A stretch of 64,000 bases of DNA from the NCBI RefSeq assembly GCF_013122565.1, contig NZ_CP053258.1. One strand, written 5' to 3'. This document shows positions 1 through 13,019 of the stretch, in pieces (positions within the stretch are counted from its first letter, which is position 1; the number at the start of each line of letters is the position of its first letter). The position numbers and the translations under genes were made by a program. Source of the DNA: Escherichia coli. GTDB taxonomy: Bacteria > Pseudomonadota > Gammaproteobacteria > Enterobacterales > Enterobacteriaceae. The notes below the pieces were generated by a model. That model saw nothing but the letters and a program-made list of their open reading frames with translations. It ran no database searches and was not told the DNA's origin.

Positions 1-277
1 GAGGGATTTACAGACCAGCGGCATAGTGGGGTTGTCAGCCAGTAAGGTGGGATACAGGCACAGTGATCGACATGGTGAGGTCAACGACAAAAAAAATGTT
101 GCCGTTCTGCCAACAGTTCCTGCCAGCATTCGGGCAACGAAGGGTTCTACTGGTGGATACACATACCAGGGGAATAAAGTCGTTTTAGCCTCTCCTTTAG
201 TAATCACCGGGGGTAATGAAATCAGCATCTGCATCCCTCGTCATGCCAGCCATCAATTTCAGTTGCTTATGTCCTGA

Positions 278-805
278 CTAAAAATAAGATGTGATACCCA
301 GGGTGACGATGTCGCTCATACGTCTTAGTTTCAGCTTGTACATAATGTTGAATTTCTGAATCTTTAATGTTTGTTGCGAAATATTGAGCGTCGACGTGAT
401 ATTGCTTTCATTTTTATTTTTCAGAATCAGTTGCATAATTTTGAACTGATTATGTGAAAAACATAATTCTGAATTCTTATGGGGCAAGTGTTTACCATAA
501 GTAATCTCAAGAAGATTTTTGATACTTTCTTTGCGGCTGACAAAATAAATAGGCGCTTTAGCTTTTAGTTTACTGATGTGATAAGGTGCCAAAACAATAA
601 TTCTCTCGGCATCTAATTTCTCCAGAAATTTAATCGCTTCTTCATCAAGGATATGATTGTGATAGGTATCAATGATAACCTTGAAGGGTTTATTGCCTAC
701 TTTTTTGATCTCTGACAGGGAATTGATTTTTATCATTTCGTGATTATCTTTCAACTGCCAAAAGCCCTGTAAAAGAAAAGAATCTTTCGTCATGAGAAAA
801 ATCAT
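278..805 (-). CDS. gadE: LuxR-family acid-resistance transcriptional activator GadE (175 aa; ORF track extends to 883 but the conserved start is MIFLMTKDSF)
   Basis: Translation matches GadE over its full length as recalled; C-terminal LuxR-type HTH; synteny with hdeD/hdeAB. Confidence 0.9.
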   Translation of the reverse strand: MIFLMTKDSFLLQGFWQLKDNHEMIKINSLSEIKKVGNKPFKVIIDTYHNHILDEEAIKFLEKLDAERIIVLAPYHISKLKAKAPIYFVSRKESIKNLLEITYGKHLPHKNSELCFSHNQFKIMQLILKNKNESNITSTLNISQQTLKIQKFNIMYKLKLRRMSDIVTLGITSYF

Positions 806-1603
806 AACTTGCTCCTTAGCCGTTATCGTTTCGAACATGTCATCCTTTTCATTATTTACATCCTTGTCCGAATCGTTGTTCAATATAGTAAACGCCTATA
901 AGAACTTTGCCCTTCGTGAACTAATACGTCTATTAACACTAATCAATACTTCAGATTTATCCATCACGCACTCCATATATTGATCCTAAGTAAAATTCCT
1001 GGTTGTTATCAATTTGTAAACAGTGAACAAAAAGTTAACGTTTGCGGATTACTGCCCAAGAATAAGTTATCAATAACCAGTTTGTGATCTCTGAAGAATA
1101 TTACTAAAGTTAAAATGTAATCCGATTTAAATATCGAGTCTCCTTGTTTCGACTTAAGCTGGCAATTGGATTGCCAGCTTTCTTTTAACGCATTGAAATT
1201 ACCTGAGTAAATAACGCATTCATGTCTTCAGGTTTTTATATAGCGTCTGGAGACACGGATATTTATGCAATGTAATCAACGCCAGTTGCAATAAAATGAA
1301 CCCGGATTACTTATTTAACCGCCCATATCATCAACGCTTACGGAACTCTTTGTTCACTTTCCCACAGCACTTTTAAAACATTAAACCTGACTACGGAAAA
1401 TATCAGCCATGATAATGTTTGAAATGGCTAATTTGCCATGGAATGAAAAAATTTAGATTAAATTCAGTAGGTTGAAATAATCACCAGCAGGTGATTATTT
1501 CAATGATAGTGCGAAAATGATCTGCAACGCTGTGAAGCGGAGAGAGTATTAATTAGATCATAGTCACATCAAGTGACTATGATCCAGATGACAACCGGGA
1601 TAA
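806..1603. promoter_or_regulatory. Long gadE upstream control region / hdeD-gadE intergenic (~800 bp, AT-rich, no convincing ORF)
   Basis: Non-coding AT-rich stretch between divergent-convergent AFI genes; established knowledge that gadE has an unusually large multi-promoter control region (an antisense sRNA, ArrS, is reported here in K-12 but I cannot place it precisely). Confidence 0.5.
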
Positions 1604-2176
1604 TTATTGCTGCTTAACGAACAAACTGGCGAAGCTGAACAGGCTGGCGGCGCTAAATATCAGTTCAATTCCCACCAGTGTCGAAACCAGCGTTACAGAC
1701 ACCATCGGCGTTGCACCAAGGAATATCCAGGCAATGACGATATCCAGCACACCAATAACGAGCTGTAGCCAGCTGCCTTTCATTGAACGCTGACGATACC
1801 AACTCATCAGGCGAATAACCCCTGCAACACAGAACAAACCGGCAATAAATGCCGCTATGGCAAAAATGCCCAGCTCCGGTGCGCGGATGAAGAAATAGCC
1901 GATCAATAAATAGGCGACTGCGACGAGGAAACCGGATAATACCGGCCAGAAATTATGACTGCGGTTGCTGAATAATCCAACAATAAGCGCAATGCCCGAG
2001 CAGATTAATAATGCACCCACTACCGTGCTTAAAATATCGCCAGAGACGAACGGGAAACTGATACACAGCAACCCGACGATAAACAGCAGCACGGCAATAA
2101 ACTGGATTGCTCTGCGATGTTTTTTAAGCATCTCCAGATCAAACTTCAAAATTGTTGCCTTATCTATATATAACAT
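1604..2176 (-). CDS. hdeD: Acid-resistance inner membrane protein HdeD (190 aa)
   Basis: Multi-TM hydrophobic translation matching HdeD; position divergent from hdeA. Confidence 0.9.
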   Translation of the reverse strand: MLYIDKATILKFDLEMLKKHRRAIQFIAVLLFIVGLLCISFPFVSGDILSTVVGALLICSGIALIVGLFSNRSHNFWPVLSGFLVAVAYLLIGYFFIRAPELGIFAIAAFIAGLFCVAGVIRLMSWYRQRSMKGSWLQLVIGVLDIVIAWIFLGATPMVSVTLVSTLVGIELIFSAASLFSFASLFVKQQ

Positions 2177-2430
2177 AGAACCACCCTATAAAATTAAGAA
2201 GAAAATCCCCTGCTATCAATCTATGCCAAAAACGCGTCTAAGAATGCAGTCGATTTAATAAAAATTTCCTAATTACAGTATCTGATGCATCTGTAACTCA
2301 TTGTATTGAAATAAAAATATCTGATTTTGATATTTTCTATCAACATGACATATACAGAAAACCAGGTTATAACCTCAGTGTCGAAATTGATTCGTGACGG
2401 CTCTTTCACTTTATAGTTGAGGATATTACG

Positions 2431-2763
2431 ATGAAAAAAGTATTAGGCGTTATTCTTGGTGGTCTGCTTCTTCTGCCAGTTGTGAGCAATGCAGCGGATG
2501 CGCAAAAAGCAGCTGATAACAAAAAACCGGTCAACTCCTGGACCTGTGAAGATTTCCTGGCTGTGGATGAATCCTTCCAGCCAACTGCAGTTGGTTTTGC
2601 TGAAGCGCTGAACAACAAAGATAAACCAGAAGATGCGGTTTTAGATGTTCAGGGTATTGCAACCGTAACCCCAGCTATCGTTCAGGCTTGTACTCAGGAT
2701 AAACAAGCCAACTTTAAAGATAAAGTTAAAGGCGAGTGGGACAAAATTAAGAAAGATATGTAA
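2431..2763 (+). CDS. hdeA: Periplasmic acid-stress chaperone HdeA (110 aa, signal peptide)
   Basis: Translation MKKVLGVILGGLLLLPVVSNA... matches HdeA; followed by hdeB. Confidence 0.95.
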   Translation: MKKVLGVILGGLLLLPVVSNAADAQKAADNKKPVNSWTCEDFLAVDESFQPTAVGFAEALNNKDKPEDAVLDVQGIATVTPAIVQACTQDKQANFKDKVKGEWDKIKKDM

Positions 2764-2878
2764 TTCCGGGAATGCGTTACATCGTACTTCCTTGCATATT
2801 GAACAGGCCGGAATATCTTCTTAAAAAGCAGCTATTCCTCCTGTTCATATATAATCTCTATATTGAATGGGTTACAAA

Positions 2879-3205
2879 ATGAATATTTCATCTCTCCGTA
2901 AAGCGTTTATTTTTATGGGCGCTGTAGCGGCTTTGTCACTGGTAAACGCACAATCTGCGCTGGCAGCCAATGAATCCGCTAAAGATATGACTTGCCAGGA
3001 ATTTATTGATCTGAATCCAAAAGCAATGACACCGGTTGCATGGTGGATGCTGCATGAAGAAACAGTATATAAAGGTGGCGATACTGTTACTTTAAATGAA
3101 ACCGATCTCACTCAAATTCCTAAAGTGATCGAATACTGCAAGAAAAACCCGCAGAAAAATTTGTATACCTTCAAAAATCAAGCATCTAATGACTTGCCGA
3201 ATTAA
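2879..3205 (+). CDS. hdeB: Periplasmic acid-stress chaperone HdeB (108 aa from MNISSLRK)
   Basis: Translation matches HdeB; signal peptide; ORF-track start at 2867 is probably 12 nt too long. Confidence 0.9.
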   Translation: MNISSLRKAFIFMGAVAALSLVNAQSALAANESAKDMTCQEFIDLNPKAMTPVAWWMLHEETVYKGGDTVTLNETDLTQIPKVIEYCKKNPQKNLYTFKNQASNDLPN

Positions 3206-3268
3206 TGAGGTACAAGTAAAAAGGAGTAGCAAGTTGAGCCATCTTGCTGCTCCTTTTTGCATTTTTAT

Positions 3269-3916
3269 ATGACAGCAGAATTTATTATACGTCTTATACT
3301 CGCGGCAATTGCCTGTGGCGCTATTGGCATGGAAAGGCAAATGCGCGGCAAAGGAGCAGGGTTACGCACACATGTATTAATTGGCATGGGAAGCGCCCTG
3401 TTTATGATTGTTTCGAAATATGGTTTTGCTGACGTGCTGTCTTTAGATCACGTCGGACTGGACCCCAGCCGTATTGCTGCTCAGGTGGTGACGGGCGTCG
3501 GGTTTATCGGTGCAGGTAACATTCTCGTTCGTAACCAAAATATTGTAGGTCTCACGACGGCAGCGGATATCTGGGTGACCGCCGCCATTGGTATGGTTAT
3601 TGGCAGCGGTATGTACGAACTGGGTATTTATGGTTCAGTGATGACCTTGCTGGTGCTGGAAGTCTTCCATCAATTAACCTTCCGCCTGATGAACAAAAAT
3701 TACCATTTACAGCTGACATTAGTGAACGGTAATACGGTATCAATGCTCGACTGGTTTAAGCAGCAAAAAATAAAAACGGATTTAGTTTCGTTGCAGGAAA
3801 ATGAAGATCATGAAGTGGTCGCCATTGATATCCAGCTTCATGCCACAACGTCGATAGAAGATCTGTTGCGATTATTAAAAGGTATGGCAGGGGTGAAAGG
3901 CGTTTCAATTAGCTAA
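3269..3916 (+). CDS. yhiD: MgtC-family inner membrane protein YhiD (215 aa)
   Basis: Translation from MTAEFIIRL... matches YhiD; hydrophobic N-terminal MgtC-like domain. Confidence 0.85.
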   Translation: MTAEFIIRLILAAIACGAIGMERQMRGKGAGLRTHVLIGMGSALFMIVSKYGFADVLSLDHVGLDPSRIAAQVVTGVGFIGAGNILVRNQNIVGLTTAADIWVTAAIGMVIGSGMYELGIYGSVMTLLVLEVFHQLTFRLMNKNYHLQLTLVNGNTVSMLDWFKQQKIKTDLVSLQENEDHEVVAIDIQLHATTSIEDLLRLLKGMAGVKGVSIS

Positions 3917-7306: not shown

Positions 7307-7732
7307 TTATTTCAGGCGATTACCCGCTTCATCAACCACTTTCTCGCCGTCTTCCTTGGTGAACGCGCCTTGTTGCGCATCTGGCAGAATTTCCAGCACC
7401 ACTTCTGAAGGGCGGCACAGGCGAGTTCCCAGCGGCGTCACCACAATCGGGCGATTAATCAGAATCGGGTGCTGAAGCATAAAGTCGATTAACCGATCGT
7501 CAGTAAATTTATCTTCTGCAAGGCCCAGTTCCTCATACGGCTCGACGTTTTTACGCAGCAGCGCGCGTACGGTAATCCCCATATCGGCAATCAGTTTGAC
7601 CAGTTCATCACGCGTCGGTGGGGTTTCCAGATAATAGACAATGGTCGGTTCTGTGCCGCTGTTGCGGATCATCTCCAGCGTATTTCGCGATGTGCCGCAG
7701 GCCGGGTTGTGATAAATGGTAATGTTGCTCAT
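7307..7732 (-). CDS. arsC: Arsenate reductase ArsC (141 aa)
   Basis: Translation MSNITIYHNPACGTSRNTLEMIRN... with catalytic Cys in the CGTSR motif. Confidence 0.9.
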   Translation of the reverse strand: MSNITIYHNPACGTSRNTLEMIRNSGTEPTIVYYLETPPTRDELVKLIADMGITVRALLRKNVEPYEELGLAEDKFTDDRLIDFMLQHPILINRPIVVTPLGTRLCRPSEVVLEILPDAQQGAFTKEDGEKVVDEAGNRLK

Positions 7733-7744
7733 ATCAATATCTCA

Positions 7745-9034
7745 TTACAAAGTGAAAGAGAGACGTAGCGCCAGCGCAGCCAGCGTCACAAACAGCACAG
7801 GCAGGGTCATGATAATCCCTGTACGGAAGTAATATCCCCAGCTGATAGTCATATTCTTCTGCGAAAGTACGTGCAGCCAGAGTAGCGTTGCCATGCTACC
7901 AATTGGGGTAATTTTCGGTCCCAAATCGCAGCCAATCACGTTGGCATAAACCATCGCTTCTTTGATAACGCCAGATGCCGTGCTGCCATCAATGGACAAT
8001 GCGCCAACCAGTACCGTCGGCATATTGTTCATAATAGAAGAGAGGAAGGCGGTAAGGAATCCGGTGCCGAGCGTCGCGGCCCACAGGCCGTTATCCGCCA
8101 GCACGTTGAGTACGCCAGAAAGATATTCCGTTAACCCGGCATTGCGCAGGCCATAAACCACCAGATACATGCCGAGCGAGAAGATGACAATCTGCCAGGG
8201 CGCACCGCGCAGCACTTTACCCGTATTAATCGCATGACCGCGTTTAGCGACGACAAATAATATCAGCGCACCCACTGCCGCAATGGCGCTGACCGGAATG
8301 CCGAGCGGTTCCAGGACGAAAAATCCCACCAGCAGAAGCAGTAAAACAACCCAGCCAGTTTTGAACGTAGCAGGATCTTTAATCGCTTCTGCGGGAGATT
8401 TCAGCAGCGCCATGTCGTAGTTCTGCGGAATATCTTTGCGGAAATAGAGATGCAGCATCATCAGCGTGGCAACAATTGCGGCGATATCCACCGGCACCAT
8501 CACCGAGGCATATTCGCGAAAGCCGAGGCCAAAGAAATCTGCGGAAACGATATTCACCAGGTTGGAGACAATAAGTGGCAGGCTGGCGGTATCGGCAATG
8601 AATCCGGCCGCCATCACGAACGCCAGCGTCGTGCCTTTACTGAACCCTAAAGCCAGCAGCATAGCGATGACAATCGGTGTCAAAATAAGCGCCGCGCCAT
8701 CATTGGCAAACAGGGCGGCAACGGCGGCACCGAGCAGGACAATCCAGGTAAACAGCAAGCGACCACGACCATTACCCCAGCGTGAGACGTGCAGCGCCGC
8801 CCATTCAAAAAAGCCGGACTCATCCAGCAGCAGGCTGATGATAATGACGGCAATAAACGCAGCCGTCGCGTTCCAGACGATATTCCACACCACCGGAATA
8901 TCACCCGGATGAACCATGCCCGTAATTAACGCCAGAACTGCGCCGAGCGTTGCACTCCAGCCGATGCCTAAACCTTTCGGCTGCCAGATAACCAATACGA
9001 TGGTCAGGACAAAGATAGCGCCTGCCAGTAACAT
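7745..9034 (-). CDS. arsB: Arsenite efflux pump ArsB (429 aa from [13 protein letters not shown] track extends 7 codons further upstream)
   Basis: Polytopic membrane protein matching ArsB; operon arsRBC. Confidence 0.9.
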
Positions 9035-9087
9035 AATGCCTCCCGGATAAAACACATGTGCAAATCCATATGTGTTTAGCTAAATTT

Positions 9088-9441
9088 TTAACTGCAAATG
9101 TTCTTACTGTCTGCGGAACAGTTTTGTCGAGCCAGGTTGCGGACAATTGCCTGAATCTTTTCCTGTTCACATCGCCAGGCCTCATCAATAATTTTCGCCG
9201 CCCATGCTGGAATATGCGGCGATAAGCGGTAATGAACCCACTTACCTTGCTTGCGGTCCAGCAATAGCCCACTTTCACGCAGTAATGCCAGATGGCGGGA
9301 TATCTTGGGCTGCGACTGATCGAGGGCAGTGCAGAGATCGCAGACGCATAACTCTCCCAGCTCGCTGAGCAGTAAAACGATGCCCAGACGGGTTTCATCG
9401 GCAAGAATTTTGAACAGTTGGATGGGTAACAGAAATGACAT
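9088..9441 (-). CDS. arsR: ArsR/SmtB-family arsenic-responsive repressor ArsR (117 aa)
   Basis: Translation contains the ELCVCDLC metalloid-binding motif and a winged HTH. Confidence 0.9.
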   Translation of the reverse strand: MSFLLPIQLFKILADETRLGIVLLLSELGELCVCDLCTALDQSQPKISRHLALLRESGLLLDRKQGKWVHYRLSPHIPAWAAKIIDEAWRCEQEKIQAIVRNLARQNCSADSKNICS

Positions 9442-9591
9442 ATTGCGCTCCTGATTGTTGCAGGTAGTGTCTCTCTTCGAAGCGGATAAGTCAAAAACAT
9501 ATATGTTTTAACGAATGCGTATGTGCAGAGAAAGGTAATAGATGTGAGTTAAGAGTTGGGTATTTATTGGAAAAGACCTGAATCAGGACGT

Positions 9592-9620
9592 AAAAAAACC
9601 GACTTTGCGTCGGTTTTTTA
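9592..9620. terminator. Bidirectional rho-independent terminator-like hairpin (A-run, ccgac-ttt-gcg-tcgg stem, T-run)
   Basis: aaaaaaaccgactttgcgtcggtttttta: GC stem flanked by A7 and T6, so it can terminate on either strand. Confidence 0.6.
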
Positions 9621-9736
9621 CTTTCCAGCCCTGAGTTGGTGGCTCTGGCTGGAGTGAGATAGTCATCATCTAACGCATCAATGCTAATACCATACTGAAA
9701 CTATTGCAAGGACGTGCTGGTTTTATAACCCGCAAG

Positions 9737-9756
9737 TACTGTATGATTATCCAGTT
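9737..9756. promoter_or_regulatory. LexA (SOS) box, probably the dinQ promoter operator
   Basis: TACTGTATGATTATCCAGTT fits CTG-N10-CAG with an AT-rich core; lies in the arsR-gor intergenic where K-12 has the LexA-regulated dinQ/agrAB locus. Confidence 0.6.
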
Positions 9757-9831
9757 AGCTCTGAGACATTTTCACTCTGGCAATGCGCTTGACATCCTCC
9801 ACGCCCTGAATGACGAGGATCCCTGCTACGT

Positions 9832-11040
9832 TCAGGCTGTCGCCTGAATCATTTCGGTGGGTTCCTGCTTCAACGAGCGGCCTGACTGCACCCTCTCTCC
9901 ACAGGCAAGAACGGCGTGCCCCGCCGCTAAAATGTTACGAGCGCCGTTTACATCGGCGTTCGCTGTATATCCACATACCTGGCATCTGAATTTACTTTGT
10001 GACAGGCGGTTCTCTTTCGCTGTATGACCACAGTACGCGCAACGCTGGCTTGTATACGCTGGCGGAACAGCAAGCACCTGACCGCCACGCCAGAGCTGCT
10101 TGTACTCAAGCTGGCGGCGCATTTCATACCAGCCCTGATCCAGTATCGAACGGTTTAAACCTGATTTTGCCCGGACATTGCGCCCCGGCTGGCTGACCGT
10201 ACCCGCTGCTGACTTTGACATGTTGCTGACCTTCAAATCCTCAATGACTATCATTGCGTGGTTTTTGCTGACGGTCGTTGTGACTTTGTGAAGGTAGTCC
10301 CTGCGGATATTTGCGATACAGGAATGCAGTCGCTGTATTTTGCGTTTCTGCTTCTGCCAGTTGTTGCTGAATTTGACCCTGCGGCTTAACTGTCGCTGAA
10401 GTCTCGCCAGCGTCTTCTGGTTTTTCTGAAAACTGTTTACAGGCTCAAAGACTGTGCCATCTGACAGCGTGGCGAGTTTAGCCACGCCAGCATCCAGCCC
10501 GACCATTGATGCTGAAGGGTGAACCGGAGTGGATACTTCACTTTCTGTCTGAATACTGATGTACCACTTACCGCAGGACTGGCTGACAGTGACATTTTTC
10601 ACAACTCCCGTGACCTGACGGCTATTCCGGTAGCGCATCCAGCCCAGTTTCGGCAGAAAAATACGGCTGTTTTCCTGATCGAGCTTAACGCCCTGCGGGT
10701 AGCGGAATGCATCATCCTGTCCCCGCTTTTTGAATCGGGGAAAAGCAGCCCGCTTCCGGAAGAAGTTTTTGTAAGCCCGCTCAAGGTCTTTCAGTGACTG
10801 TTGCAATGGCTGTGAGGGCGAATCTTTAAGCCATTGCGTTTCAGTGGCGTTTTTCCACTCAACCAACCAGGAAGCCATTTTCCCGTAAGGGATGTATTTA
10901 TTACCGGCCTCATGATTCTCATTCTGACGTGCCAGAGCACGATTGAAAACGAAACGACATGCGCCTGCGAAGCGCCTAATTTCACGCTCCTGTTGACCAC
11001 CGGGCCTTAACTGGAATTTAAATGCCTGTAGTCGTTTCAC
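9832..11040 (-). CDS. tnpB: IS605-family TnpB/OrfB (RuvC-like nuclease with C-terminal zinc finger, 402 aa)
   Basis: Translation has the OrfB_IS605 layout, including the C-terminal CxxC...CxxC zinc ribbon (CAYCGH...CQVCGY) followed by [10 protein letters not shown]. Confidence 0.8.
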
Positions 11041-11047
11041 AGGTCAA

Positions 11048-11514
11048 ATGATACTTTGGTCTGTGAAAAAAGAAACCGATATCCGGCGTGGAAGGCATTG
11101 TGTTTTCCTGATGCATGTTCACCTGGTCTTTGTCCCAAATACCGACGCCAGATTTTTGACCATGACGCGACAGAAAAACTACGCACTTACTTTTCAAATG
11201 TATGTGCTGATTTTGAAGCTGAACTGGTTGAAATGGATGGCGAACCAGATCACGTCCATTTGTTAATTAACTATCCTCCCAAACTGGCGATATCCAGTCT
11301 GGTAAACAGCCTCAAAGGCGTATCGGGTAGGTTACTGCGACGAGATCGACCAGATATTGCAGTCAGGTATTACTACAAAGGCGTTTTGTTGAGTCCTGGC
11401 TATTTTGCCAGTAGCTGCGGAGGTGCGCCAATATCCGTCATCCGCCAATACATTGAACAACAGCAAACACCTGGTCAGGTGGAAAACCGCGCCTTATATC
11501 CCCGCCCTGAATGA
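11048..11514 (+). pseudogene. tnpA: IS200-like Y1 (HuH) transposase TnpA, apparently disrupted by a -1 frameshift near codon 30
   Basis: N-terminal motif HCVFLMHVHLVFVP is in the frame starting at 11048; the rest (PKYRRQIF...HVHLLINYPPK...LKGVSGRLL) is in the frame starting at 11056; the shift is in an A-run (cccaaatac where cccaaaatac is expected) around 11137-11142. Confidence 0.6.
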
Positions 11515-11535
11515 ACGGGGTTTTACGGCGCACCG

Positions 11536-11613
11536 GATAAAGCAATCATCGTTCTTGGGGCGTTAATTGCGCTGCTGGAACTGCTCCGCTTTCTGCTTCA
11601 GCTTCTGAACTGA
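11536..11613 (+). pseudogene. dinQ: dinQ remnant: type I toxin peptide coding sequence (…DKAIIVLGALIALLELLRFLLQLLN) lacking its own start codon and directly abutting the IS right end
   Basis: In-frame translation up to the stop at 11611-11613 matches the DinQ hydrophobic peptide as recalled (K-12 MIDKAIIVLGALIALLELIRFLLQLLN); no ATG/GTG precedes DKAII here. Confidence 0.6.
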
Positions 11614-11630
11614 TAGCGGAAACGTAACTA

Positions 11631-11662
11631 AGGGCAAAGAGCACACCACTCTTTGCCCTTTA
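11631..11662. terminator. Hairpin terminator between convergent dinQ and gor
   Basis: agggcaaagag-cacaccact-ctctttgccct perfect 11-bp stem immediately 3' of the gor stop (11667) and of dinQ. Confidence 0.65.
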
Positions 11663-11666
11663 ACAT

Positions 11667-13019
11667 TTAACGCATTGTCACGAACTCTTCTGCCGCCGTT
11701 GGGTGAATGGCGACGGTATTGTCGAAGTCTTTTTTGGTTGCGCCCATCTTCAGCGCCACCGCGAAGCCCTGCAACATTTCGTCCATACCAAAGCCAATGC
11801 CGTGAATACCGACAATCTTCTCTTCTGGCCCAACGCACACCAGCTTCATGCGGCACGGCTGGCGGTGAGTGGTGACGGCGGTATACATCGCGGTGAAAGA
11901 GGATTTATACACTTTCACCTGATCGTCGCCGTACTGCTCGCGCGCCTGCGGTTCCGTTAAACCAACAGTACCAATCGGCGGATGGCTGAAGACCACGGTC
12001 GGAATGTTGCTGTAATCCAGATGCTCATCCGGCTTGTTATTAAACAGGCGTTCAGAGAGGCGGCGACCCGCTGCAACTGCCACCGGTGTCAGTTCTACTG
12101 CACCCGTGTTATCGCCCACCGCGTAAATACCTTCAATGTTGGTGTTTTGATATTTATCGACGACGATATAGCCTTTTTCGTTGGTTTTAACGCCAGCGGC
12201 TTCGAGGTTGATGTTGTCATTGGCAGGCTCGCGACCAATCGCCCAAATCAGGCAATCCACCGTTTCACTGCGACCATCTTCCAGCTCCAGCGTCAGGCTA
12301 CCATCGGCATTTTTCACTACCGCTTTCGGGATGGCGTTGGTGTGCAACTGCGAGCCTTCGGCGTTCATCACTTCGACCAGCGTTTCAGAGATCATCGGGT
12401 CGAAGCTGCGCAGCGGCGCATGTTTACGCACAAACAGATGCGTTTTCGCGCCGAGGCCGTTAATCACGCCCGCCAGCTCAACGGCGATGTAACCCGCGCC
12501 AACAACCGCCACGCGCTCTGGCAAAGCAGGAAGGGCGAAGAAGCCATCAGAATCAATACCGTATTCCACGCCCGGAATATCCGGGTGGCTCGGACGACCG
12601 CCGGTGGCGATCAGAATATGATCGGCCGTGATGGTTTCACCGTTAACTTCCAGCGTTTTGGCATCAACGAAGCGGGCAAAGCCTTTGATTACATCAACGT
12701 TATTTTTACCGAGCACGTTTTCATAGGAAGTATGAATACGGTCGATATAGGCGGTACGGCTGGCGATCAACGTTTCCCAGTTGAATTTATTGATCGTGGT
12801 ATCGAAACCATAATCCGGACCGTACATGTGGATCGCTTCACGGATTTGCGCCGCGTGCCACATCACTTTCTTCGGTACGCAGCCGACGTTCACGCAGGTG
12901 CCGCCCAGCTCTTTGGCTTCAATCAGCGCGCATTTCTGACCGTACATAGCCGCGCGGTTGATGGAGGCAATACCGCCGCTGCCGCCGCCGATGGCGATGT
13001 AATCATAGTGTTTAGTCAT
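11667..13019 (-). CDS. gor: Glutathione reductase Gor (450 aa)
   Basis: FAD-binding GGGSGG N-terminus, redox-active [10 protein letters not shown] motif; full-length match to Gor. Confidence 0.95.

What the first reader, a model, noticed from the sequence alone, without database searches (positions are those of the whole stretch)
9592..9700. Bidirectional terminator and possible single agr-like antisense RNA remnant next to the IS
In the arsR-proximal part of the intergenic region there is one strong hairpin with a flanking A-run and T-run (aaaaaaaccgactttgcgtcggtttttta). It could terminate a short minus-strand sRNA starting near the LexA-box region, which is the expected position and orientation of the agrA/agrB antisense RNAs of dinQ in K-12. 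Only one such terminator is visible, so one agr copy may have been lost with the IS insertion. An antitoxin RNA retained without a functional toxin would be an interesting decay intermediate.
Basis: inference. Interest (0 to 1): 0.3.

Follow-up and report, generated by a model that had tools for sequence, protein, structure and literature searches.

The report
Orphan Agr antitoxin RNA gene
The hairpin is the terminator of a complete, single copy of the known Escherichia coli small RNA Agr, the antisense antitoxin of the DinQ toxin; the toxin gene beside it has been destroyed by a mobile element, so this is an ordinary, already-described RNA left without its local target.

Summary
Window 9590-9673 (minus strand) is a full-length match to Rfam RF02891 (AgrB) at 108 bits against a gathering score of 40. 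The reported hairpin (9592-9619) is its Rho-independent terminator, and it is the only Agr copy in the 64 kb.

The gene is intact, not a remnant. It has a TTGCAA-17-TAGCAT promoter identical to that of K-12 agrA, and it is 97.6% identical to K-12 agrA and 95.2% to agrB.

The neighbouring toxin gene dinQ is dead. An IS609-like element (9789-11535) lies in it, and 165 nt of the dinQ transcript (+36 to +200) are missing. That stretch holds the Agr target, the ribosome binding site and the start codon. Only the LexA-controlled promoter with +1 to +35, and codons 3-27, remain.

"One copy lost with the IS insertion" is not supported. Six E. coli genomes carry the same IS at the same junctions with two agr copies. 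Single-copy agr with intact dinQ and no IS also occurs (ATCC 11775, GF3-3, 2013C-3250), and about 29% of complete genomes lack the spacer between the copies.

The retained allele would pair near-perfectly with a dinQ target type found in 364 genomes.

Verdict: a known family in a rare decayed allele; low interest.

The parts
9590..9673 (-). Agr small RNA gene (single copy, agrA-like allele), 84 nt. The predicted 5' end is at 9673 and the 3' end at about 9590-9592.
   Evidence: Rfam RF02891 AgrB, 108 bits, model positions 1-84 of 84. It is 97.6% identical to K-12 agrA and 95.2% to K-12 agrB. It folds at -30.6 kcal/mol, z = -6.4.
9592..9619 (-). Rho-independent terminator of Agr.
   Evidence: Read directly from the sequence. 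Folds on both strands. Corresponds to the terminal stem of the Rfam consensus structure. The same hairpin is described as the agrA/agrB terminator in K-12 (PMC3567139).
9624..9653 (-). Central stem-loop of Agr (CUCCAGCC...GGCUGGAA).
   Evidence: Rfam consensus structure with all pairs formed, and the minimum-free-energy fold.
9643..9673 (-). 5' antisense (target-recognition) region of Agr. Its variable core is TAGTCATCATC on the plus strand.
   Evidence: It aligns with the 31-nt repeat shared by the agr genes and the dinQ 5' UTR. No complementary partner with 3 or fewer mismatches exists elsewhere in the 64 kb.
9681..9709 (-). Agr promoter: -35 TTGCAA (9704-9709), 17-nt spacer, -10 TAGCAT (9681-9686), with 7 nt to the start at 9673.
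   Evidence: Read from the sequence. This stretch is identical to the one upstream of K-12 agrA. It matches 8 of 12 consensus positions, below the scanner's cut-off of 9, so one search did not list it.
9739..9788 (+). Retained dinQ promoter: LexA box CTG-N10-CAG at 9739-9754, -10 TATGAT at 9742-9747, and dinQ transcript +1 to +35 (9754-9788). It now runs straight into the IS.
   Evidence: K-12 dinQ +1 to +35 aligns to 9754-9788 at 97%. The +1 position is derived from the numbering in PMC5066626, where the SD is G184-G187, applied to L001.
9789..11535 (-). IS609-like IS200/IS605-family element. tnpB (9832-11040, minus strand) is intact at 402 aa. tnpA (11048-11514, plus strand) is frameshifted near 11134. 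The element takes the place of dinQ +36 to +200.
   Evidence: It is 98.5-98.8% identical to IS609-type copies at other E. coli loci over window 9787/9789 to 11540/11544. Homology to K-12 breaks at 9788 and resumes at 11536.
11536..11613 (+). dinQ remnant: codons 3-27 plus the stop codon. It has no start codon, no Shine-Dalgarno sequence and no Agr target.
   Evidence: tblastn aligns DinQ residues 3-27 at 96%. blastn aligns dinQ +201 to +331 to 11536-11666. The sequence was also read directly.
11630..11660 (.). Hairpin terminator shared by dinQ and gor.
   Evidence: Terminator scan: 14-bp stem. PMC3567139 places the dinQ terminator just beyond the gor stop codon.

Best explanation
Window 9590-9673 (minus strand) encodes one intact copy of the Agr small RNA, the antisense antitoxin of the SOS-inducible type I toxin DinQ. 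In strains with a working system, the first 31-36 nt of Agr pair with the dinQ 5' UTR and keep the processed, translatable +44 mRNA from being made and translated. That mechanism was shown in K-12 and is inferred here. In this genome the partner is gone. An IS609-like element sits inside dinQ, and the 165 nt holding the processing site, the Agr target, the ribosome binding site and the start codon are deleted. Agr is therefore an orphan antitoxin with no local target. The single-copy state is a natural, common haplotype of this locus and is not a by-product of the IS. The retained allele is the type that is the cognate antitoxin in strains such as LR536431; ATCC 11775 carries a one-nucleotide variant of it. 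It is not a degenerate spare.
For: Identity as Agr:
- Rfam AgrB at 108 bits, full length, and the only copy in the window.
- The fold is far more stable than shuffles.
- The promoter stretch is identical to that of K-12 agrA.
- The gene order arsC-arsB-arsR-agr-PdinQ-dinQ-gor is the same as in K-12.

Toxin loss:
- K-12 dinQ +1 to +35 and +201 to +331 align on either side of the IS, and +36 to +200 is absent.
- No second dinQ-like ORF and no Agr-complementary site exists in the 64 kb.
- The deleted segment is present in 5415 of 5426 complete E. coli genomes, so its loss is rare.

Copy number is independent of the IS:
- The same IS at the same junctions occurs with two Rfam-scored agr copies in F9792 and five other genomes.
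- A single agr with intact dinQ and no IS occurs in 2013C-3250, GF3-3 and ATCC 11775.
- The spacer between the copies is found in 3842 of 5426 genomes, by both megablast and blastn.

The allele is of a functional type:
- The window's Agr pairs at 28 Watson-Crick plus 1 G-U of 31 positions with the dinQ target of LR536431.
- The predicted duplex energy is -58.2 kcal/mol, the same as K-12 AgrB with K-12 dinQ.
- That target type is at least 99% identical in 364 genomes.

Mechanism in K-12: PMC3567139 and PMC5066626.
Against: No expression data exist for this genome, so transcription of the orphan is inferred from the intact promoter alone. Only 64 kb of the genome could be searched, so a trans target elsewhere cannot be excluded; dinQ-like 'dql' genes are reported in Enterobacteriaceae (PMC5066626). 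The order of events cannot be resolved. F9792 has the same IS junctions with two agr copies, which is also compatible with one copy being lost by agrB/agrA recombination after the toxin died. The figure of about 29% of genomes without the spacer mixes true single-copy loci with B2-type loci in which agr is fused to the dinQ target repeat.
Confidence: 0.85

Rival explanations
1. The second agr copy was lost after, and because, the toxin was inactivated. An F9792-like ancestor (two agr copies, IS609 in dinQ) lost one copy by homologous recombination between the roughly 75-bp near-identical parts of the tandem agr genes. Such a deletion must keep the 5' region and promoter of the dinQ-proximal copy and the arsR-side flank, which is what is seen. 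On this view the locus is a two-step decay intermediate.
For: The IS junctions, including the 165-nt deletion, are identical in the window and in F9792-type genomes, which carry two copies. The window's variable core TAGTCATCATC differs at one position from the dinQ-proximal copy of F9792 and K-12, TAGCCATCATC. The geometry matches a repeat-mediated deletion. In K-12, losing the arsR-proximal copy is harmful while dinQ is active (PMC3567139), so the loss would be tolerated only once dinQ is dead.
Against: The same single-copy architecture exists with intact dinQ in ATCC 11775, GF3-3 and 2013C-3250, so toxin death is not required. Among the E. coli haplotypes sampled, the window's agr-PdinQ stretch is closest to single-copy ATCC 11775 (97.2%) and less close to F9792 (94.8%). 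The window and F9792 differ by about 3% across the IS and its flanks, so F9792 is not a near ancestor.
Confidence: 0.25
2. One reading: the IS insertion, or the deletion that came with it, physically removed one agr copy.
For: A 165-nt deletion does adjoin the right end of the IS, so the insertion was followed or accompanied by loss of flanking DNA.
Against: That deletion lies on the dinQ side only. From the IS end at 9789 back to arsR, the sequence is collinear with IS-free single-copy loci, and it includes the full dinQ promoter and the Agr promoter. Genomes with the identical IS junctions keep two copies. In two-copy strains the second copy lies on the arsR side of the retained one, away from the IS.
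Confidence: 0.05
3. Agr is kept because it has another job in this strain. It might, for example, repress a dinQ-like toxin mRNA elsewhere in the genome, or act in trans on another transcript.
For: The orphan shows no decay: promoter, structure and terminator are all intact. It is identical except for one nucleotide in a second assembly whose flanks differ. A family of dinQ-like genes with similar 5' UTRs is reported in Enterobacteriaceae (PMC5066626).
Against: No complementary site with 3 or fewer mismatches exists in the 64 kb. An 84-nt gene can stay intact by chance for a long time. No trans target of Agr came up in the papers read here.
Confidence: 0.1

Closest known systems
agrA of E. coli K-12 (the dinQ-proximal Agr RNA; Weel-Sneve et al. 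2013, PMC3567139)
   Same: 82 of 84 nt are identical. The promoter stretch is identical. The position next to the dinQ promoter with its LexA box is the same, and so is the terminator.
   Different: In K-12, agrA is the mismatched paralogue that does not protect against DinQ. Here it is the only copy. Its core differs by one base (T for C at 9663). That base turns a G-U wobble into a Watson-Crick pair with the TAGTCGTCATC type of dinQ target seen in other strains. No dinQ target remains in this locus.
agrB of E. coli K-12 / Rfam RF02891 (AgrB family), the antitoxin of the dinQ-agrB type I toxin-antitoxin system
   Same: Same family by covariance model (108 bits). Same three-part build: an antisense 5' region, a stem-loop and a terminator. 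Same strand and same intergenic region.
   Different: 80 of 84 nt are identical. The variable core of the antisense region differs (TAGTCATC against GAGTTCTT), so it would pair poorly with K-12 dinQ: -45.9 against -58.2 kcal/mol. The arsR-proximal gene position is empty.
Single-copy agr-dinQ loci of E. coli ATCC 11775, GF3-3 and 2013C-3250
   Same: One agr gene lies between arsR (or arsC) and the dinQ promoter, with the same flanks. ATCC 11775 is 97.2% identical over agr plus PdinQ.
   Different: Those strains keep a complete dinQ with a matching target. The window has the IS609 insertion and the deletion instead.
IS609-disrupted dinQ allele of E. coli O169:H41 strains (F9792, F6326-C1, 2014EL-1345-2 and others)
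   Same: The IS-to-host junctions are identical at both ends, and the same dinQ +36 to +200 segment is lost.
   Different: Those strains have two agr copies, about 3% sequence divergence from the window, and a different tnpA frameshift.

Membership tests
Agr RNAs (Rfam RF02891 AgrB; agrA/agrB of E. coli) | Sequence and secondary structure match the family covariance model above the curated threshold. | tested here: met
   108 bits against a gathering score of 40, model positions 1-84 of 84, E = 1.4e-19. The whole-window scan gave the same hit.
Agr RNAs (Rfam RF02891 AgrB; agrA/agrB of E. coli) | Located in the arsR-gor intergenic region and transcribed opposite to dinQ. | tested here: met
   arsR lies at 9088-9441 (minus strand) and gor at 11667-13019 (minus strand); agr is on the minus strand and the dinQ promoter and remnant are on the plus strand.
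Agr RNAs (Rfam RF02891 AgrB; agrA/agrB of E. coli) | Has its own sigma-70 promoter and a Rho-independent terminator. | tested here: met
   TTGCAA-17-TAGCAT at 9681-9709, identical to K-12 agrA. Terminator hairpin at 9592-9619. This is sequence evidence only.
Agr RNAs (Rfam RF02891 AgrB; agrA/agrB of E. coli) | A transcript of about 85 nt is detectable. | not testable with these tools
   No expression data are available for this genome.
dinQ-agrB type I toxin-antitoxin system (a working module) | The 5' 31-36 nt of Agr are complementary to the 5' UTR of a dinQ mRNA in the same genome. | tested here: not met
   dinQ +36 to +200, which includes the target at about +88 to +120, is absent. There is no other match with 3 or fewer mismatches in the 64 kb. 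The rest of the genome is not available.
dinQ-agrB type I toxin-antitoxin system (a working module) | An intact toxin ORF (27-aa DinQ) with a Shine-Dalgarno sequence and a GTG start, under the LexA-controlled promoter. | tested here: not met
   Only codons 3-27 remain (11536-11613), and 1.75 kb of IS separates them from the promoter. There is no canonical start codon (ATG, GTG or TTG) between the in-frame tnpA stop at 11512-11514 and the remnant.
dinQ-agrB type I toxin-antitoxin system (a working module) | The antitoxin protects against toxin-dependent UV sensitivity and slow growth. | not testable with these tools
   This needs genetics. It was shown only for K-12 agrB (PMC3567139).
IS200/IS605 family (IS609-like). 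This is the neighbouring element, not the finding itself. | Carries tnpA (a Y1 HUH transposase) and tnpB, and is closely similar to known copies. | tested here: met
   It is 98.5-98.8% identical to copies annotated as IS609 or IS200/IS605 at other loci. The tnpB product hits the Pfam families OrfB_IS605 and Cas12f1-like_TNB. tnpA is frameshifted.

The most novel reading that the evidence does not exclude
The Agr copies may be alternative specificity alleles of the antitoxin, not 'one functional copy plus one degenerate copy'. On this reading the variable core co-evolves with the dinQ target, and the cognate copy switches between the two gene positions in different E. coli lineages. The window's intact orphan would then be kept by selection for a trans target, for example a dinQ-like toxin elsewhere, rather than by chance. 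The first half is suggested by 10 of the 13 related loci sampled, the ones that retain a dinQ target. The second half is untested.
Probability: 0.12. Interest if true: 0.45.

Novelty: already known. Interest (0 to 1): 0.15.

Why it matters
This matters little on its own. The RNA is a textbook type I antitoxin with an Rfam model, and annotating it simply fills a gap, since RefSeq lists no feature over it. The allele is a clean natural example of an antitoxin RNA outliving its toxin. It could be used to ask whether Agr has any function apart from DinQ. The side observation may be worth a short population study: which agr copy matches dinQ differs among E. coli lineages, so the 'agrA is degenerate' view may be specific to K-12.

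Tried and rejected
- The consensus terminator and promoter scan listed neither the Agr terminator nor its promoter. The hairpin's A and T runs pair with each other, and the promoter matches only 8 of 12 positions. I relied on folding and on Rfam instead.
- An exact search of the GTDB representative genomes for the junction between the dinQ promoter and the IS found nothing.
- The best E. coli match to the flanking 9.5 kb is 98.2%.
- An exact-protein look-up of TnpB found one NCBI assembly, GCA_052983875.1, with the same single-agr and IS arrangement.
- I first took the roughly 29% of genomes without the inter-copy spacer to be single-copy. This had to be corrected. Part of them are B2-type loci where agr is fused to the dinQ target repeat. 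A rough split gives about 768 genomes that are single-copy with a full dinQ 5' region and about 811 that are partial or fused. This split is an inference from counts, not a direct tally.
- I considered independent IS insertions at the same target site, to explain the 3% divergence between the window and F9792. The identical deletion end-point argues against this, and it is left unresolved.
- I considered whether the dinQ remnant could be translated as a read-through or fusion product. The tnpA stop codon is in frame 7 codons upstream, no canonical start codon follows it, and tnpA is frameshifted. I rejected this.
- The sub-threshold Rfam hits (Spy779816, HgcC, and plus-strand AgrB) are the terminator hairpin or chance matches.

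Full report
**Locus**

The window carries arsC (7307-7732), arsB (7745-9055) and arsR (9088-9441) on the minus strand. These are followed by a 390-bp non-coding stretch and then an IS200/IS605-type element: tnpB at 9832-11040 (minus strand), and tnpA at 11048-11514 (plus strand), which is frameshifted. A short stretch comes next, then gor at 11667-13019 on the minus strand. This is the arsR-gor region of Escherichia coli. In K-12 it holds dinQ, agrA and agrB (PMC3567139). The neighbouring 9.5 kb matches complete E. coli genomes at 98.2% at best. The source is therefore E. coli or a very close relative that is not in that collection.

**The observation**

The hairpin is real and lies at 9592-9619. 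It has a ccgac/gtcgg core and a 5-nt loop, with seven A on one side and six T on the other. The 46-nt stretch around it folds well on both strands (-18.3 and -16.6 kcal/mol), and none of 200 shuffles did as well.

A scan of 9000-12000 against Rfam found a full-length AgrB (RF02891) match at 9590-9673 on the minus strand. It scores 108 bits against a gathering score of 40, E = 1.4e-19, and every consensus pair is formed. A scan of the whole window at gathering thresholds found this hit and no second Agr. The 84-nt RNA folds at -30.6 kcal/mol, z = -6.4.

Upstream on the minus strand lies TTGCAA (9704-9709), a 17-nt spacer, TAGCAT (9681-9686), and then 7 nt to the predicted start at 9673. This stretch is identical to the one upstream of K-12 agrA. 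The gene is complete, not a remnant. Its 84 nt are 97.6% identical to K-12 agrA and 95.2% to K-12 agrB.

**The toxin side**

The K-12 dinQ transcript was numbered from PMC5066626, where the SD is G184-G187. It aligns to the window in two pieces: +1 to +35 at 9754-9788, and +201 to +331 at 11536-11666. Nothing matches +36 to +200.

The missing 165 nt hold four things:
- the +44 processing site;
- the Agr target (about +88 to +120);
- the Shine-Dalgarno sequence;
- the GTG start and codon 2.

Only DinQ residues 3-27 remain (11536-11610, with the stop at 11611-11613). No canonical start codon (ATG, GTG or TTG) lies upstream before the in-frame tnpA stop at 11512-11514. The LexA box (CTG-N10-CAG, 9739-9754) and the -10 element are intact. 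They now read into the right end of the IS.

The IS spans about 9789-11535. It is 98.5-98.8% identical to IS609-type copies at other E. coli loci. No Agr-complementary site with 3 or fewer mismatches, and no other DinQ-like ORF, exists in the 64 kb. By sequence, Agr is an antitoxin without its local toxin. The deleted dinQ segment is present in 5415 of 5426 complete E. coli genomes, so this state is rare.

**Was the second copy lost with the IS?**

The evidence says no, or at least not through the IS itself.

1. Six complete genomes carry the same IS at the same two junctions with the same deletion. They are the O169:H41 strains F9792, F8111-1SC3, F6326-C1 and 2014EL-1345-2, plus 88-3493 and LR882990. 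Their locus is about 233 bp longer than the window's. Rfam finds two Agr genes in F9792.
2. Single-copy agr occurs with an intact dinQ and no IS in 2013C-3250, GF3-3 and the type strain ATCC 11775. GF3-3 is also the best match to the window's flank.
3. The 147-bp spacer between agrB and agrA is found in 3842 of 5426 genomes, by both megablast and sensitive blastn. Roughly 29% of genomes therefore lack a tandem pair. Some of these are B2-type loci (Nissle 1917, FCI29) in which arsRB is deleted and the 3' part of agr is fused directly to the dinQ target repeat.
4. In the window, the 115 bp between the Agr start and the IS end are collinear with IS-free loci. In two-copy strains the absent copy lies on the arsR side, away from the IS.

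Among the E. coli haplotypes sampled, the window's agr-PdinQ stretch is closest to single-copy ATCC 11775, at 97.2%.

A weaker alternative cannot be excluded. A copy may have been lost by recombination between the tandem repeats after dinQ had died, because F9792-type alleles show that the IS event can coexist with two copies.

**What kind of Agr is retained?**

The 31-nt repeat shared by the agr genes and the dinQ 5' UTR has a variable core that follows GGAGTGAGA. I compared this core in 13 related loci. Ten of them still have a dinQ target. In each of those ten strains, one agr copy matches the target at all but the two constant mismatch positions, or through G-U wobbles. Which copy matches differs between strains:
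- the arsR-proximal copy in K-12 and PT62;
- the dinQ-proximal copy in CE10, 13E0767, O157:H7 and LR536431;
- the only copy in 2013C-3250, GF3-3 and ATCC 11775.

The window's core is TAGTCATCATC. It occurs with 100% identity over 70 nt in four complete genomes. In LR536431 it faces a dinQ target with core TAGTCGTCATC, giving 28 Watson-Crick pairs plus 1 G-U out of 31. The predicted duplex energy is -58.2 kcal/mol, the same as K-12 AgrB with K-12 dinQ. With K-12 dinQ the window's Agr gives -45.9 kcal/mol. That is close to the K-12 AgrA-dinQ pair (-42.7), which is ineffective in experiments (PMC5066626). The LR536431 target type is at least 99% identical in 364 genomes.

The retained RNA is therefore of a type that acts, by inference, as the cognate antitoxin in other lineages. 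The target it once faced in this lineage cannot be recovered.

**A second occurrence**

An exact look-up of the window's TnpB protein found one NCBI assembly, GCA_052983875.1, with the same arrangement: a single Agr, the IS, and the dinQ remnant. It is identical to the window from 9578 to about 11800 except at one base. It differs at 19 positions in 9506-9577 and by 1-2% further out. The orphan allele thus sits in at least two backgrounds, with a recombination breakpoint at the Agr terminator.

**How it most likely works**

Shown in K-12 (PMC3567139, PMC5066626): Agr RNAs are constitutive. AgrB pairs through its 5' end with dinQ mRNA, which blocks accumulation and translation of the active +44 form. 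Loss of agrB causes DinQ-dependent UV sensitivity and slow growth.

Inferred here: the gene is transcribed from 9673 and terminates at the hairpin, which also shields the arsR promoter region from read-through. With no dinQ target present, the RNA has nothing to act on locally.

The hairpin's symmetry makes it formally bidirectional. However, no plus-strand transcript that would need it is evident.

**Verdict**

The proposed link between the IS and the copy number is not supported. Novelty: already known. Interest: low.

Noticed in passing
window 9643-9673, compared with loci L001-L012 and L014: The variable core of the Agr antisense region covaries with the dinQ target within each strain, and the agr position holding the matching copy differs between lineages. 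It is arsR-proximal in K-12 and PT62, dinQ-proximal in CE10, 13E0767, O157:H7 and LR536431, and the only copy in 2013C-3250, GF3-3 and ATCC 11775. The published view that agrA is a degenerate copy may hold only for K-12-like strains.
   Followed up: partly
L004 (Nissle 1917) 930-1110; L007 (FCI29) 930-1085: In these B2 strains arsR and arsB are deleted, and the 3' part of agr is joined directly to the dinQ target repeat. No agr promoter, LexA box or dinQ promoter is left, yet the dinQ ORF is intact and annotated. About 811 complete genomes cover less than 80% of the dinQ 5' region.
   Followed up: partly
window 9789-11535: The IS609-like element has an intact 402-aa tnpB and a frameshifted tnpA (near 11134). 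The copy at the identical junctions in F9792 differs by about 3% and has a different tnpA frameshift. It is unexplained how identical junctions, including the 165-nt deletion, go together with that much divergence.
   Followed up: partly
window 9862-9905 (minus strand): A sub-threshold RAGATH-18 match (29.6 bits against a gathering score of 44.9) overlaps the 3' end of tnpB. From my own knowledge, that is where a TnpB guide (omega) RNA would lie. The LexA-controlled dinQ promoter at 9739-9754 now points into this end, antisense to it.
   Followed up: no
window 9506-9577 and L013: The arsR-agr spacer is unusually divergent. It has 19 differences in 70 bp against GCA_052983875.1, which is otherwise identical from 9578 to 11800, and it is about 90% identical to most E. 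coli (96% to CE10). This looks like a recombination breakpoint at the Agr terminator.
   Followed up: partly
window 11536-11613; L003 4839-4907: RefSeq annotates a 22-aa 'DinQ' over the equivalent remnant in F9792, apparently starting at a non-canonical ATC codon. In the window the remnant is in frame with the tnpA stop 7 codons upstream and has no Shine-Dalgarno sequence. The annotation is probably driven by homology alone.
   Followed up: partly
window 89-160 (minus strand): Rfam hit to the ES205 sRNA (105 bits against a gathering score of 86). It is unrelated to this finding.
   Followed up: no
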